From positions 1 through 33,585 of IMG/VR virus record IMGVR_UViG_3300030376_006181: DNA of 33,585 bases; one strand, given 5' to 3'. The translations under genes were made by a program, and so were the position numbers. The DNA comes from a virus. Taxonomy: Duplodnaviria; Caudoviricetes. This document shows, piece after piece, positions 7,458 to 11,321 of the stretch. Numbering within the stretch: the first letter of the stretch is position 1; each line of letters starts with the position of its first letter. The notes under the pieces were generated by a model, which was given only the letters and a program-made list of their open reading frames with translations, did no database searches and had not been told where the DNA came from.

Positions 7458-7538
7458 TTTTTTATTCCTTTCTACTTGATTAATATATAAAAGACTATAA
7501 AGGATAATAAAACATTTAACAATAAGAAAGTGAAAAAA

Positions 7539-8174
7539 ATGTACACAATAAAAAAAGCTAAACAATTGACCGGCGGCGGAATTAGTAACTCTAACCGTAA
7601 AATGCCGGGTCACACTTACGGCCTGAGCGCGCTTGATTGTAAGACCGGGGAAAAGCTGCGGGGCGTTCCTGGTTCAGTGTGTTTTTTATGCTATGCAATG
7701 AAAGCTAATTATTTTTATCCAAGCGTAAAGACTGCACATGAAAGAAGGCTCAAGTCTATTAATAATAAAACCTGGACCGCGGCTATGATTCAATTAATTA
7801 CGCATTATGAAAAAAATTATTTTAGATGGCATGATAGCGGGGATATACAAACAATAGAGCACTTAGGCAAGATCTGCGCCGTAGCTGCAGGGACGCCCCA
7901 TATTAAACACTGGCTGCCAACACGTGAAGCAAAAATATTAAAAGATTATAAAGAAGCGGGCGGGGTGATCCCTGCAAACCTGGTTATACGCTTGAGCGCG
8001 ACTATGGTAAACGGGGTCCCGTCTAAAATTCATGATCATTCGTCAACGGTTCATACCGCCGGCGTTAAACCAATTGGTGAAGCTTGCAACGCGCAAAATC
8101 AGGGCGGCCAATGCCTGGACTGCCGCGCATGTTGGAACCCTGCAATTAAAAATATTTCTTATGAAGCGCATTAA
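7539..8174 (+). CDS. Gp88-like Cys-rich phage protein
   Basis: Motifs KMPG, C-x12-CxxCYA, RWHDSGD, WLPTRE, NLVIRLS and C-terminal C...CLDCRACW match the phage gene-product-88 family. Confidence 0.75.
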   Translation: MYTIKKAKQLTGGGISNSNRKMPGHTYGLSALDCKTGEKLRGVPGSVCFLCYAMKANYFYPSVKTAHERRLKSINNKTWTAAMIQLITHYEKNYFRWHDSGDIQTIEHLGKICAVAAGTPHIKHWLPTREAKILKDYKEAGGVIPANLVIRLSATMVNGVPSKIHDHSSTVHTAGVKPIGEACNAQNQGGQCLDCRACWNPAIKNISYEAH

Positions 8175-8271: not shown

Positions 8272-8309
8272 GCGCTCATCAAAAAAAAGCTTTCTGAAAA
8301 ATAAAGTGT

Positions 8310-8510
8310 GTACGTTTTGTGTACGTTTAGCGTTCCGCTAACCTACTATCACGTTCTCTTGTGTGCGTTTTGTCAACCGAGAGGCGAGGGTCACCCTCCT
8401 CCGATTTGGGTACGTTTTGTGTGCGTTTAGTCAACGTTTCGTGAACCAGTTGCCAGTCAAATGGTTTATCAAACACGGCTATCGGTTCGGTTTTCGGTAC
8501 GTTTTGCGCG
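8310..8510 (+). repeat. Cluster of phased TACGTTTTGTGT(A/G)CGTTTAG-type repeats
   Basis: 8311-8330 and 8411-8430 are 19/20 identical, with partial copies at 8361-8374 and 8497-8506. Related 17-mers lie at 6918-6934 and 7213-7229. Confidence 0.8.
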
Positions 8511-8812
8511 AGTTCCCTACCCTTGTCCCCTCCATAGATTTTTATGGTACTCTGTTCGAGGGTCGTGGCTATGATAAAACATTTTCCACCCTTCAAATGG
8601 TGCTGTAAATTCCACGCAATCTGATGAGGCGTAATCTTTAATTTATTACTATAAATTACCTTTAATTCAGCCGTAAAGAACCCACAGGAGGGGAAACAAC
8701 CAACAAGGTCTGGAAACCCCTGTATTGTGCGAGTTTCTATTCTTGTCCAAGATATTTTAGACAAATTCTTTTTTAATAATTGCCAAAACTTAGCCTCTGG
8801 TTTGCGTAACAT
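8327..8812 (-). CDS. VRR-NUC / PD-(D/E)XK nuclease (Holliday-junction resolvase-like)
   Basis: PE..FW, RIE, GFPDLVG, ELK and HQIAW motifs. The low-complexity C-terminal tail is encoded by the DNA repeats. Confidence 0.85.
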   Translation of the reverse strand: MLRKPEAKFWQLLKKNLSKISWTRIETRTIQGFPDLVGCFPSCGFFTAELKVIYSNKLKITPHQIAWNLQHHLKGGKCFIIATTLEQSTIKIYGGDKGRELAQNVPKTEPIAVFDKPFDWQLVHETLTKRTQNVPKSEEGDPRLSVDKTHTRERDSRLAER

Positions 8813-8899
8813 TTCTAAGGGCTAACAGTAACCTAAAAAAGATTAAATTAAATAAAAGATTTTCTTTGATAATCTGTTAATTCATGATAAAGGTTTTTT

Positions 8900-9437
8900 T
8901 AGAAAGCCAATTAGTAGGACTATACTGGCGGGACTTGGGAGTGGCACCCTAGGTATCCCCTCCACCTAGGTGGATGTGACAGGGGACTGTGATGAGCAGA
9001 CGAGAGTGACTTTATAGGACTGGTTTCGAAAAGCTTTCAATGATTTATATACTGTGAAAGTGGATAAAACCGCCACCGACTAGCGTTCCGATAAGTGCTT
9101 TAAAAAGGGAGGTCAGTATATAATTTATTCTAGGCGAGGATGAATAGTAGTAGGCATAAATATAACAGGTTTCTTAGTAACTGGTCATTGTTGAAATCAA
9201 GACGTTAAAAAAGGAAGGCTTACTAAGTGCTACTATAGGTAGCTTAGAATAAGAAATGAAGTTCACAATGACTTAAAGCGCTAATGTGTCTTCATAGGGT
9301 AGCATGGTCGCCCGAAGTATACCATGACGTGGGGCTGATAACTCGGTACAGTTTAGAAGTATACGCCAAAGTGTCAGCCCAAGGTATCTGAGGAGCCTTA
9401 CACTCTCAGCTAGTAGCCGAGCTAGTTCCCTTCGGCA
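8900..9437 (+). ncRNA. Candidate large structured non-coding RNA (possibly GOLLD-like)
   Basis: About 650 bp with no ORF of 60 aa or more in a gene-dense genome. Helices include 9045-9054/9114-9123, 9184-9195/9262-9272, 9303-9308/9321-9326 and 9332-9340/9372-9380, plus a 3' pseudoknot at 9381-9409. Boundaries are approximate. Confidence 0.65.
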
Positions 9438-9469
9438 ATTAACTTAACCAAAATAGAAAGAAGGATAAT

Positions 9470-9652
9470 ATGACATTTAAAATAGGAGACATGGTCGAAG
9501 TCAAATCGATTGAAGAATGGGGCTTTGTCCACGATAGAGAAATTGGTAAAGGTAAAAGAAACCTTTATCTAATAGATGAAATTCAAGGAGAAGGTTTTTC
9601 TTGGTTTCGTCAAGATGACTTAAAACTAATCAACAGAAAAAAGGAGGACTAA
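9470..9652 (+). CDS. Small SH3-like/KOW-like hypothetical protein
   Basis: The 'FKIGDMVEV...G.V...YLI' pattern; AAGGA RBS. Confidence 0.7.
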   Translation: MTFKIGDMVEVKSIEEWGFVHDREIGKGKRNLYLIDEIQGEGFSWFRQDDLKLINRKKED

Positions 9653-10057
9653 ATGGGAGATAGAGTAAGTATACAGTTTAAAGATAGTGACGGAGATAAG
9701 TCACCAGTCTTGTTTCATCATTGGGGGGGAATGTACCTCCCCAAATTTGCATCAAATTGGATGAGGGCATTTAAAAAAAAATTAAGTATTGAAGATAATG
9801 TAAGTGACCCTTTAACTAGATTAGAGGCAAGATCAGTTGCTGTTCAATTTATTGCAGACCTAAGAAATCATGAATTTTTTCATGAGTGCATGGGTTTTGA
9901 AAAAGATGAGGAGGGTAAATCAATTTATCAAAAACCAATTCATTCTGGTGAGTTTGTTTCACATAGTGTTTATCTAGGTGCAGATGAAAACGAAGGAGAC
10001 AACTCTGATAATGGTCATTTTGTTATTGATACAGATACAGGAGACTTTGTAATATAA
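9653..10057 (+). CDS. Conserved phage hypothetical protein
   Basis: 134 aa with an AGGAGG RBS; N-terminal 'MGDR..I......LFHHWGG' pattern seen in phage early proteins. Confidence 0.8.
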   Translation: MGDRVSIQFKDSDGDKSPVLFHHWGGMYLPKFASNWMRAFKKKLSIEDNVSDPLTRLEARSVAVQFIADLRNHEFFHECMGFEKDEEGKSIYQKPIHSGEFVSHSVYLGADENEGDNSDNGHFVIDTDTGDFVI

Positions 10058-10063
10058 TTATAG

Positions 10064-10092
10064 AGGAGGGCAATTAAGCCCTCCTTTTTTTT
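10064..10092 (+). terminator. Rho-independent terminator
   Basis: AGGAGGGC-AATTAA-GCCCTCCT followed by a T-run. Confidence 0.75.
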
Positions 10093-10105
10093 AAAGGAGA
10101 ATAAT

Positions 10106-10378
10106 ATGCCAGTACAACATACATATTGGGAATGGGAAGAGGCATTCGATAAATTTGGATTTGGAGACGGAGATGAGTGGAACGGCACGCATTTAGTTGA
10201 AGAATTTCTTCACGGCATAGGCTGTAAGGAAGTTGAGTGTGACTCTTGGGGAATACATAATTATATGATTTTCCGAATAGTAGATAAAGACGGCAAGGAA
10301 TATGAGTTTGATGGTTACGAAGAACCTCAAAACATTTTGCCGAAACACATAGTTGAAAAACTAAACAAGGAGTTTTGA
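10106..10378 (+). CDS. Acidic hypothetical protein
   Basis: 90 aa with an AAGGAG RBS; motif 'WEEAFDKFGF.DGD...G.HN..I'. Confidence 0.8.
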   Translation: MPVQHTYWEWEEAFDKFGFGDGDEWNGTHLVEEFLHGIGCKEVECDSWGIHNYMIFRIVDKDGKEYEFDGYEEPQNILPKHIVEKLNKEF

Positions 10379-10379
10379 T

Positions 10380-10541
10380 ATGAAAAAAATAATTAGATAC
10401 ATCCTGTGTAAGTTTGGTGTGATTAAACCACAGCCAAGTTTAATATGGAGAAATATCCTAGACAATGAGCATATAGGTGTCATTGGTTATGGGTACAGTA
10501 GAAAAGATGTAATCAAAGCAGAAGATAAATGGAGGAGGTAA
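10380..10541 (+). CDS. Hypothetical protein (53 aa)
   Basis: Read manually: MKKIIRYILCKFGVIKPQPSLIWRNILDNEHIGVIGYGYSRKDVIKAEDKWRR. Fills the gap exactly and has an AAGGAG RBS. Confidence 0.6.
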   Translation: MKKIIRYILCKFGVIKPQPSLIWRNILDNEHIGVIGYGYSRKDVIKAEDKWRR

Positions 10542-10542
10542 C

Positions 10543-10785
10543 ATGGCTAGATTTATTTTAGATGTTGAAACTGAATACGATAAAAATAATAATGTTTTAA
10601 CTGATATTAAAAAAGGTTGTGAAATATTCGCTGACGAATACTTGTCACAAAAATTTAATGGTGGGGCTGTGAGCATAACCTGTATTGATAAACACAACAC
10701 AGGGCAGTTTCATGAAGAAAATCGTTTTAATAAACTAACTTCAAAACAAATAAGAAACTTTAATAGGAGGGGAGATGACGATTGA
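10543..10785 (+). CDS. Hypothetical protein
   Basis: 80 aa with a GGAGG RBS. Confidence 0.75.
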   Translation: MARFILDVETEYDKNNNVLTDIKKGCEIFADEYLSQKFNGGAVSITCIDKHNTGQFHEENRFNKLTSKQIRNFNRRGDDD

Positions 10786-11047
10786 TATAGGTCATAACTG
10801 CATTGGGTGTCATGAGGACACCCAGTTCGGTAGTGGGAGGTTTGTTAATAGAATTCCTGCGGAAAATGATGAGTATAATGGTTATTTATGTGTTGATTGC
10901 CAGTCAGATAATTGTGATGAGTGTGATACACTAACACATGAATATCACCATGATGATGACGGCAATTTTTTATGTGATGATTGCTATGTAAACAAAGTTA
11001 AAATGGGTCTAACAAGTGACCCTTACGATATATTGGAGGATGAATGA
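10775..11047 (+). CDS. Cys-rich zinc-finger protein
   Basis: Four CxxC pairs (CIGC, CVDC, CDEC, CDDC) and 'GSGRFVNRIPA'. Confidence 0.75.
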   Translation: MTIDIGHNCIGCHEDTQFGSGRFVNRIPAENDEYNGYLCVDCQSDNCDECDTLTHEYHHDDDGNFLCDDCYVNKVKMGLTSDPYDILEDE

Positions 11048-11172
11048 GTAATACAGAATTAGCTTATGAAATTAGAAAAGCGTTAATAAAGAATGGCTAT
11101 GTAAGATATGACCACGAACAAAATAAAATTCTTGAATGGTTAATTTTAGATGTTTTAGAGGAGGTAAGATGA
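11044..11172 (+). CDS. Hypothetical protein (42 aa)
   Basis: Read manually: MSNTELAYEIRKALIKNGYVRYDHEQNKILEWLILDVLEEVR. GGAGG RBS and ATGA overlaps on both sides. Confidence 0.6.
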   Translation: MSNTELAYEIRKALIKNGYVRYDHEQNKILEWLILDVLEEVR

Positions 11173-11321
11173 GAGATAATCCAGATGATCTAGCTAATCA
11201 AAAGCTAGAAAAAATAAGAAAGTGGTGTTTAATCAATGCAAGGTATGATTGGGATAGTGCAGATGCTCGTGAAGAGTTCCAAGCTATTGTTAATCTAATT
11301 GATGAGGAAGAGGGCGATTAG
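11169..11321 (+). CDS. Hypothetical protein (50 aa)
   Basis: Likely start ATG 11169 after GGAGG (MRDNPDDLANQKLEKIRKW...). Confidence 0.65.
   Translation: MRDNPDDLANQKLEKIRKWCLINARYDWDSADAREEFQAIVNLIDEEEGD

What the first reader, a model, noticed from the sequence alone, without database searches (positions are those of the whole stretch)
8900..9437. About 540-nt ORF-free, highly paired element: candidate large ornate phage RNA (possibly a compact GOLLD-like RNA)
Seen in sequence: this is the largest non-coding gap in the window. Helices include TCCCC/GGGGA (8956-60/8982-86) around TCCAC-CTAG-GTGGA, the perfect 10-bp TTATATACTG/CAGTATATAA (9045-54/9114-23), GTCATTG-T-TGAA/TTCACAATGAC (9184-95/9262-72), a crossing CTTAGTAA/TTACTAAG (9173-80/9220-27), CATGGT/ACCATG and GGGCTGATA/TGTCAGCCC. 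An H-type pseudoknot closes the 3' part: the AAGG/CCTT stem at 9381-99 has a loop CTGAG that pairs with CTCAG at 9405-09. A final GCCGA/TCGGC hairpin follows. Established knowledge: GOLLD and ROOL are large phage-associated structured RNAs of unknown function. Inference from memory only: the GTAGCATGGTCGC...CTCTCAG 3' region resembles the conserved 3' half of GOLLD, but this element is shorter and has no tRNA neighbour. It may be a variant or a new class.
Basis: partly seen in the sequence, partly recalled or inferred. Interest (0 to 1): 0.85.

Follow-up and report, generated by a model that had tools for sequence, protein, structure and literature searches.

The report
Shuffled RNA cassette array in pelagiphage
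The gene-free stretch of this ocean phage is not one giant RNA but a string of about nine small, separately folding RNA cassettes that related marine phages swap and reorder behind their likely early promoters; none matches a catalogued RNA family, and they likely work as RNA tools during takeover of the host cell.

Summary
The gap and its helices are real, but it is not a GOLLD-like RNA: no Rfam match, whole-region folding no better than shuffles, and the long-range helix is not conserved. The window is an HTVC023P-type pelagiphage relative. 8903-9436 is a chain of nine modules (M1-M9) between a predicted host-polymerase promoter and small early ORFs. All but M6 recur in other marine phage contigs, with other neighbours and in other orders. 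M4 (93 nt) has 62 distinct contexts and 14 of 31 pairs covary; the M8/M9 double pseudoknot has 7 of 18. G-U pairs fall only on the sense strand. In HTVC027P-like phages the cassettes sit on one standard stem, and cultured HTVC027P carries such an array. A third of M4 arrays with a called ORF (16 of 48) have another promoter before it, so the RNA may be the product. M9 ends 16-19 nt before a start codon in 25 of 33 cases, which points to a cis role. Best guess: an exchangeable pool of protein-binding RNAs plus a terminal mRNA shield; no partner is identified. This scan noted similar arrays on other marine phages; I found no paper describing them.

The parts
8327..8812 (-). Divergent upstream gene, conserved in relatives (PHROG 2165)
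   Evidence: E 1.6e-12; same ORF in L035, L036, L040
8865..8893 (+). Predicted host sigma70-type promoter (TTTGAT-17-TAAAGG); predicted start near 8900-8903
   Evidence: Inferred from the equivalent TTGTAT-17-TAA site in L035/L036/L040; NOT reported by the consensus scan; untested
8903..9038 (+). M1, multi-helix junction (conserved core 8912-9028); always the first module of its array
   Evidence: 9 variants aligned, 6 of 28 predicted pairs change on both sides; order
9043..9123 (+). M2, 10-bp closing stem with two inner helices; cleanly absent in L009/L183 between ATTTAT repeats; other neighbours in L117, L144, L238
9124..9253 (+). M3, wrapper stem (9124-9143 with 9237-9253) holding M4 here and other cargo in L117 and in RNA-library contigs
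   Evidence: table 5c; table 5c
9144..9236 (+). M4, widespread 93-nt module: P1, P2 (9173-80/9220-27), invariant apical stem with a T-loop-like 7-nt loop (9191-97), invariant purine-rich single strands
   Evidence: 44 variants: 14 of 31 pairs covary, 0/500 shuffles; 62 contexts; T-loop label is recalled
9255..9297 (+). M5, hairpin with a palindromic hexamer in its loop; loop shared with L088 and L190
   Evidence: too few variants for a covariation test
9298..9330 (+). M6, small hairpin; found only in near-identical genomes
9331..9380 (+). M7, hairpin with an exchangeable outer stem and a nearly invariant inner core
   Evidence: 15 matches; 4 of 14 pairs covary in 12 variants
9381..9409 (+). 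M8, H-type pseudoknot (9382-84/9396-98; 9388-90/9407-09 and 9393-95/9403-05)
   Evidence: 5 of 9 pairs covary in 12 variants
9410..9436 (+). M9, mini-pseudoknot (9410-13/9422-25; 9416-20/9432-36), usually last before the ribosome site
   Evidence: 2 of 9 pairs covary; 16-19 nt before ATG in 25 of 33 contexts, 33 nt here
9470..11321 (+). Downstream run of small ORFs without confident family, presumed early genes; terminator-like hairpin at 10062-10087

Best explanation
The gap is a chain of about nine small RNA modules that fold on their own and that marine phages share and reorder; it is likely transcribed early by the host polymerase, the inner modules likely act as RNA products that bind host proteins, and the last pseudoknot likely shields or tunes the message of the first gene. 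Shown: modular build, exchange between phage lineages, sense-strand RNA pairing with covariation, no Rfam match. Inferred: promoter and early timing; release by host RNases at the closing stems or AU-rich linkers; swapping by recombination through shared stems and short repeats; protein partners (none identified). Confidence in the cassette-array architecture alone is about 0.93; the number below is for the whole mechanism.
For: Alleles at this locus: M1-M2-M3-M4-M5-M6-M7-M8-M9 (window), M1-M3-M4-x-M7 (L009), the same plus M8-M9 (L183), M1 alone (L008), M1-y-z-M7-M8-M9 (L162), M1-M2-M3(other cargo)-PK-z-M7 (L117), M4-M2 reversed (L238). M4: 62 distinct contexts in 45 upstream and 51 downstream clusters; 43 different ORF starts among 48 with a called ORF; 16 of 48 have a further promoter match before that ORF; 21 of 42 with an upstream promoter match lie within 25 nt of the -10 box. 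Covariation. In M4 P1/P2, 76 cells are G-U and 0 are A-C, which fixes the sense strand. The helices vary while the single-stranded core stays nearly invariant, as expected of a binding surface (part of that core was fixed by the search patterns). Standard stems carry different cargos in HTVC027P-like contigs. Cultured HTVC027P has a promoter-flanked 550-nt gap with one such stem and a 140-nt module 81% identical to one in the M4 array L230. Contigs from 7 of 8 RNA libraries laid hold modules and change sequence at module borders. HTVC027P has no polymerase of its own (PMC12753301, passage).
Against: No partner, ligand or cleavage site was found. The RNA runs are assembled contigs, picked because they hold this sequence, so they do not show transcription, strand, ends or level. 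M4 is also the sole leader within 40 nt of an ORF in 10 of 48 cases, which fits a cis role. Anti-defence is a weak motive: 19 of 172 Pelagibacter genomes had any defence system, all restriction-modification (PMC11066056, passage). Some module orders may be assembly chimeras across shared modules (L004/L007/L029 join another lineage's promoter to this array inside M4). Promoter and ORF calls are crude patterns with visible miscalls. The host is inferred from protein likeness only.
Confidence: 0.45

Rival explanations
1. All modules are cis-acting leader elements (5' nuclease blocks, antitermination signals of the put type, translation enhancers) that tune the downstream early genes, like PeSL cassettes.
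For: M9 sits at a fixed 16-19 nt from ATG in 25 of 33 contexts; the commonest pseudoknot cassette has a ribosome site within 45 nt in 28 of 72; M1 is always first; M4 is promoter-proximal in 21 of 42.
Against: 16 of 48 M4 arrays are followed by another promoter match; modules occupy any position and precede unrelated ORFs; arrays stack up to nine different folds, more than one cis signal should need (inference).
Confidence: 0.3
2. The modules are metabolite-binding aptamers, acting as riboswitch-like sensors or sponges.
For: Invariant purine-rich joining strands in M4 and compact pseudoknots M8/M9 look like aptamer cores (likeness recalled).
Against: No Rfam riboswitch match in the window or in 55 related loci; no expression platform; no consistent downstream gene.
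Confidence: 0.1
3. The modules are self-assembling units that build oligomers or cages through kissing loops, as manA, ROOL and GOLLD do.
For: Palindromic or wobble-palindromic loop words in M5 and M2 in their few variants; RNAs under 200 nt form cages (10.64898/2026.07.01.735769, results read).
Against: No statistical test of the palindromes; no conserved pairing between modules; manA model finds nothing in the window or five related records.
Confidence: 0.08
4. The modules are selfish DNA hairpins or recombination hot spots with no RNA function.
For: Terminal inverted repeats, standard stems, clean loss between short direct repeats.
Against: G-U only on the sense strand (76 against 0), covarying pseudoknots, arrays lie in the promoter's direction in the contexts printed.
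Confidence: 0.05
5. One 540-nt GOLLD-like ornate RNA.
For: Size, phage origin, many helices.
Against: No GOLLD or ROOL match, no tRNA, no conserved long-range helix, modules lost and reordered.
Confidence: 0.02

Closest known systems
PeSL mobile regulatory cassettes of T4-type phages RB49/phi1 (PMC2839356; abstract and section 13 read)
   Same: Non-coding cassettes in hypervariable early regions beside host sigma70 promoters; shuffled by recombination
   Different: A PeSL is a promoter plus one terminator hairpin; here many different covarying folds and pseudoknots are chained downstream of one promoter
Early intergenic long non-coding RNAs of crAss-like phage phi14:2 (bioRxiv 10.1101/2020.03.07.982082; passages read)
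   Same: Long gene-free early stretches; there shown abundant and stable, function unknown
   Different: Other phage order; the passages read describe no modules or shuffling; sequence likeness not tested
GOLLD (RF02032) and ROOL (RF03087) (PMC12286853; passages read)
   Same: Phage-borne structured RNA of unknown function
   Different: Those are single folds with a conserved core, often near tRNAs, forming cages; none of this is found here
RT-2 motif (RF03077; RT motifs in PMC5737381, passages read)
   Same: Weak likeness to the M4 core: 10.5 bits, E 7.1 in the window; 13.3 bits, E 0.003 per record on the L022 variant
   Different: Far below the 40-bit cut-off; 4 of 5 records tested, 3 of them M4 carriers, gave nothing; the same search rang in 8 of 14 controls; no reverse transcriptase among the 46 ORFs scanned
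manA motif (RF01745)
   Same: Structured 5' RNA of marine phages
   Different: No match in the window or five related records
Phage RNA decoys: pseudo-ToxI repeats and RNA anti-CRISPRs (recalled; search listing only)
   Same: Phage RNA acting on a host protein is the working model; M8 is a small H-type pseudoknot
   Different: ToxI model RF02519 does not hit the array; modules are not tandem copies of one host repeat

Membership tests
GOLLD | Match to covariance model RF02032 | tested here: not met
   (no match at E<=10; cut-off 150 bits)
GOLLD | Universally conserved 3' domain of one large fold, many members over 800 nt | tested here: not met
   3' modules are lost or replaced among alleles; definition from PMC12286853
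GOLLD | Often near tRNA genes | tested here: not met
   0 tRNA in the window; the record is 56% complete
GOLLD | Homo-oligomeric nanocage | not testable with these tools
   needs SEC or cryo-EM
ROOL | Match to RF03087 | tested here: not met
   (one search had no ringing control)
manA | Match to RF01745 | tested here: not met
RT-2 | Score over the 40-bit cut-off of RF03077 | tested here: not met
   10.5 and 13.3 bits
RT-2 | Reverse transcriptase gene nearby | tested here: not met
   none among 46 window ORFs; genome incomplete
Type III antitoxin / pseudo-ToxI | Tandem near-identical pseudoknot repeats matching RF02519 | tested here: not met
   only hit is 14.2 bits at 8071-8098, inside an ORF; modules are unlike each other
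PeSL cassette | sigma70 promoter with one overlapping terminator stem-loop | tested here: not met
   no + strand terminator-like site in the array; modules lie downstream of the predicted start
PeSL cassette | Shuffling of cassettes in hypervariable early regions | tested here: met
Fremin 2023 viral candidate RNAs (8,495 from IMG/VR) | Module present among their alignments | tested here: inconclusive
   the zip and PDF files could not be read; no motif hit in the readable tables, whose head rows show no sequence column

The most novel reading that the evidence does not exclude
SAR11 phages keep a shared, recombining library of dozens of small folded RNAs, an RNA counterpart of integron gene cassettes. 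The cassettes are mounted on standard stems behind the first host-polymerase promoters, cut out by host RNases, and used as aptamer-like effectors against host proteins (polymerase, ribosome or RNases) or rival phages.
Probability: 0.4. Interest if true: 0.9.

Novelty: categorically new. Interest (0 to 1): 0.74.

Why it matters
HTVC023P-type phages are reported among the most abundant ocean viruses, and all early genes of HTVC027P are of unknown function (PMC12753301, section read). A swappable set of RNA cassettes at the head of the early transcript would be a layer of host takeover that gene-level studies skip. It also offers dozens of compact natural folds outside Rfam. It is testable now: HTVC027P is cultured, carries an array, and has a published infection RNA-seq time course whose text does not mention non-coding or intergenic RNA.

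Tried and rejected
Rfam scans of the window and of 55 related loci gave only sub-threshold hits, mostly microRNA-like hairpins. BLASTN of the element and of two other arrays against 50,697 cultured phage records found no module. The M4 model found only the window's own copy in 38 sources, including HTVC023P, HTVC027P and the fetched parts of HTVC103P, 023Pt_psg01 and DSL-LC04. One GTDB scan with the commonest pseudoknot motif gave a single hit, in a flavobacterium, not examined further; no SAR11 genome could be reached, so host mimicry and antisense targets are untested. Folding energy per module is weak (best z -2.6 for M7, -2.0 for M3+M4; the others -1.6 to +0.8), so the case rests on covariation. 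The CAG/CTG pseudoknot drawn in M4 does not covary. M4 has a Shine-Dalgarno-like word and ATG/GTG/TTG 8 nt later in 41 of 44 variants, but no conserved peptide follows and the 3 exceptions keep P1 pairing; kept only as a lead. One search used a structure out of register by one column and is replaced. Run X10 laid nothing. Dropped as chance matches: 4 of 22 hits and 12 of 43 contexts. Alignment A2 holds 44 of the 60 M4 strings (the rest were near-duplicates). The cluster count (138 clusters, 83 in three or more of 189 crude array regions) is redundant and only an upper bound.

Full report
Observation. The named helices are all present and the gap 8813-9469 is free of long frames. It is richer in G+C (43%) than the window (37%). 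As one RNA it folds no better than shuffles (z -0.31; minus strand +0.16). Rfam gives nothing near a cut-off, targeted GOLLD, ROOL, manA and ToxI searches miss the array, and there is no tRNA.

Context. The window is a linear virus record, 56% complete, with portal, terminase, family A polymerase, primase and helicases. Its polymerase is 47-56% and its large terminase 61-65% identical to those of 023Pt_psg01, DSL-LC04, HTVC023P and HTVC027P. A SAR11 host is likely but not shown; one of the four is recorded on a gammaproteobacterium. The element lies between a divergent conserved gene (8327-8812) and a run of small unknown ORFs from 9470. I place the promoter at 8865-8893 from the matching site in relatives; the consensus scan did not report it.

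Relatives break the element into modules. Loci found with the 134-aa neighbour protein included L009, which lacks 9043-9122 cleanly between two ATTTAT repeats, replaces 9254-9330 and lacks 9381-9440, and L008, which keeps only the 5' part. A pattern from the middle gave 22 viral hits: 4 were chance, 4 were near-identical genomes or L009, and 14 were other contigs with 89-100% identity that ends at the module's closing helix, around 9145-9235 where the contig is whole. Further scans and local alignment defined M1-M9. Orders seen include M1-M3-M4-x-M7, the same with M8-M9, M1-y-z-M7-M8-M9, M1-M2-M3(other cargo)-PK-z-M7, M4-M2-PK, M7-M7 and M7-M5. M4 occurs in 62 distinct contexts that fall in 45 upstream and 51 downstream clusters. 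Of 121 M4 loci, 60 have a protein hit to the cultured phage sequences held: best to HTVC027P in 49, 023Pt_psg01 in 6, HTVC103P in 3 and HTVC023P in 2. Assembly across shared modules could create some orders, but it cannot create the sharing itself, nor the compensated variants.

The modules are RNA folds. In 44 M4 variants, 98.9% of cells pair and 14 of 31 pairs change on both sides, with 0 of 500 shuffles as high and slid controls at 0-3 pairs (related sequences inflate this control). P1, P2 and an optional hairpin covary; the apical stem and the purine-rich strands are invariant, partly because the patterns fixed them. G-U cells number 76 and A-C cells 0. M8/M9: all cells paired, 7 of 18 pairs covary, including both pseudoknot stems. 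M7: 4 of 14. M1: 6 of 28 predicted pairs in 9 variants. M2, M3 and M5 have too few variants and M6 has none.

The wider system. Neighbouring arrays hold many other recurring cassettes. The commonest is a pseudoknot that clamps variable inserts (97 pattern hits; 72 distinct contexts with the downstream partner); it is absent from the window. A crude clustering of 189 array regions gave at most 83 clusters seen in three or more arrays. None of 55 loci scanned matched Rfam. In HTVC027P-like contigs different cargos sit on one standard 14-bp stem. Cultured HTVC027P has a 550-nt gap between two promoter-like sites with one such stem, and shares a 140-nt module at 81% with the M4 array L230; it has no M4.

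Expression. Of 24 runs listed, 15 are on record as RNA. In 7 of 8 laid, contigs fit modules and run into other sequence at 9043, 9123, 9144, 9235 and 9332; in two runs a contig joins M3 with a new cargo to M7. These are contigs chosen for holding the sequence, and run X1 covers the ORFs as well. They show presence in RNA libraries, not transcription.

Mechanism. Two classes appear. M9 ends 16-19 nt before an ATG in 25 of 33 contexts, which fits a cis role at the edge of the ribosome footprint, such as a nuclease block or translation aid (inference). M4 has no fixed place or gene: 43 different ORF starts among 48, and in 16 of 48 another promoter match lies before the ORF, so there the array looks like a transcription unit of its own. 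Variable helices around an invariant core suggest a binding surface. I therefore favour RNA products that bind host proteins early in infection, freed at the stems and swapped by recombination (0.45), over an all-cis leader (0.3), aptamers for small molecules (0.1), self-assembly (0.08) and selfish DNA (0.05). No partner is identified. Anti-defence is not the obvious target, since known systems are rare in Pelagibacter (PMC11066056, passages); polymerase, ribosome or RNases are candidates by inference only.

Known systems. PeSL cassettes share the shuffling but are promoter-terminator units. phi14:2 makes abundant, stable early intergenic RNAs of unknown function. GOLLD and ROOL are single cage-forming folds. 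RT-2 is a faint lead for M4. Ten literature searches found no description of such arrays. The main texts of the HTVC027P transcriptome paper and the HTVC023P-type genome survey have no hit for 'non-coding' or 'intergenic' (word search only). The library lacks most subscription papers, and the alignments of Fremin 2023 and the supplement of Weinberg 2017 could not be read, so single modules may already be listed there. Earlier AI notes of this scan describe similar arrays on other marine phages; none was returned for the window's sequence, and they are not independent support.

Verdict. A real, well supported array of uncatalogued, exchangeable RNA cassettes. The GOLLD reading falls; the function is inferred. 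Interest 0.74.

Noticed in passing
window 8300-8514 (+): Five copies of an 11-bp repeat family (TGTGTACGTTT-like) overlapping the end of ORF 8327-8812; similar repeats in L008, L009, L038, L042. Possibly an origin or packaging site.
   Followed up: no
L004/L007/L029, joint inside M4 (window 9145): Another lineage's promoter region is joined to the window's M4-to-ORF block (99.9% over 2,356 bp): a recombinant through M4 or an assembly chimera.
   Followed up: partly
L059-L155: A pseudoknot clamp (GGC-TTGGGTAGT-GCC ... ACTACCC) holds inserts of 5 to over 100 nt and occurs up to twice per array; the commonest cassette seen, not in Rfam.
   Followed up: partly
L173-L262; MN698241 17670-18219 (-); MW574966 16152-16478 (-): A standard stem carries different cargos, suggesting a processing site and a recombination handle.
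   Followed up: partly
window 9314-9322 and 9357-9365: The word AAGTATAC recurs in M6, M7 and another cassette (L176).
   Followed up: no
window 9207-9236: Shine-Dalgarno-like word and a start-type codon 8 nt later inside M4 in 41 of 44 variants, without a conserved peptide.
   Followed up: partly
MN698241 16213-16499 (-): HTVC027P has an unannotated homologue of the gene family of window ORF 8327-8812 (70% DNA identity to its copies in L036/L041).
   Followed up: no
window 7530-8174 (+): GP88-family gene (Pfam PF17338); its HTVC027P homologue is the best cultured hit beside many M4 arrays, and gp33/gp34 form their own expression cluster in PMC12753301.
   Followed up: no
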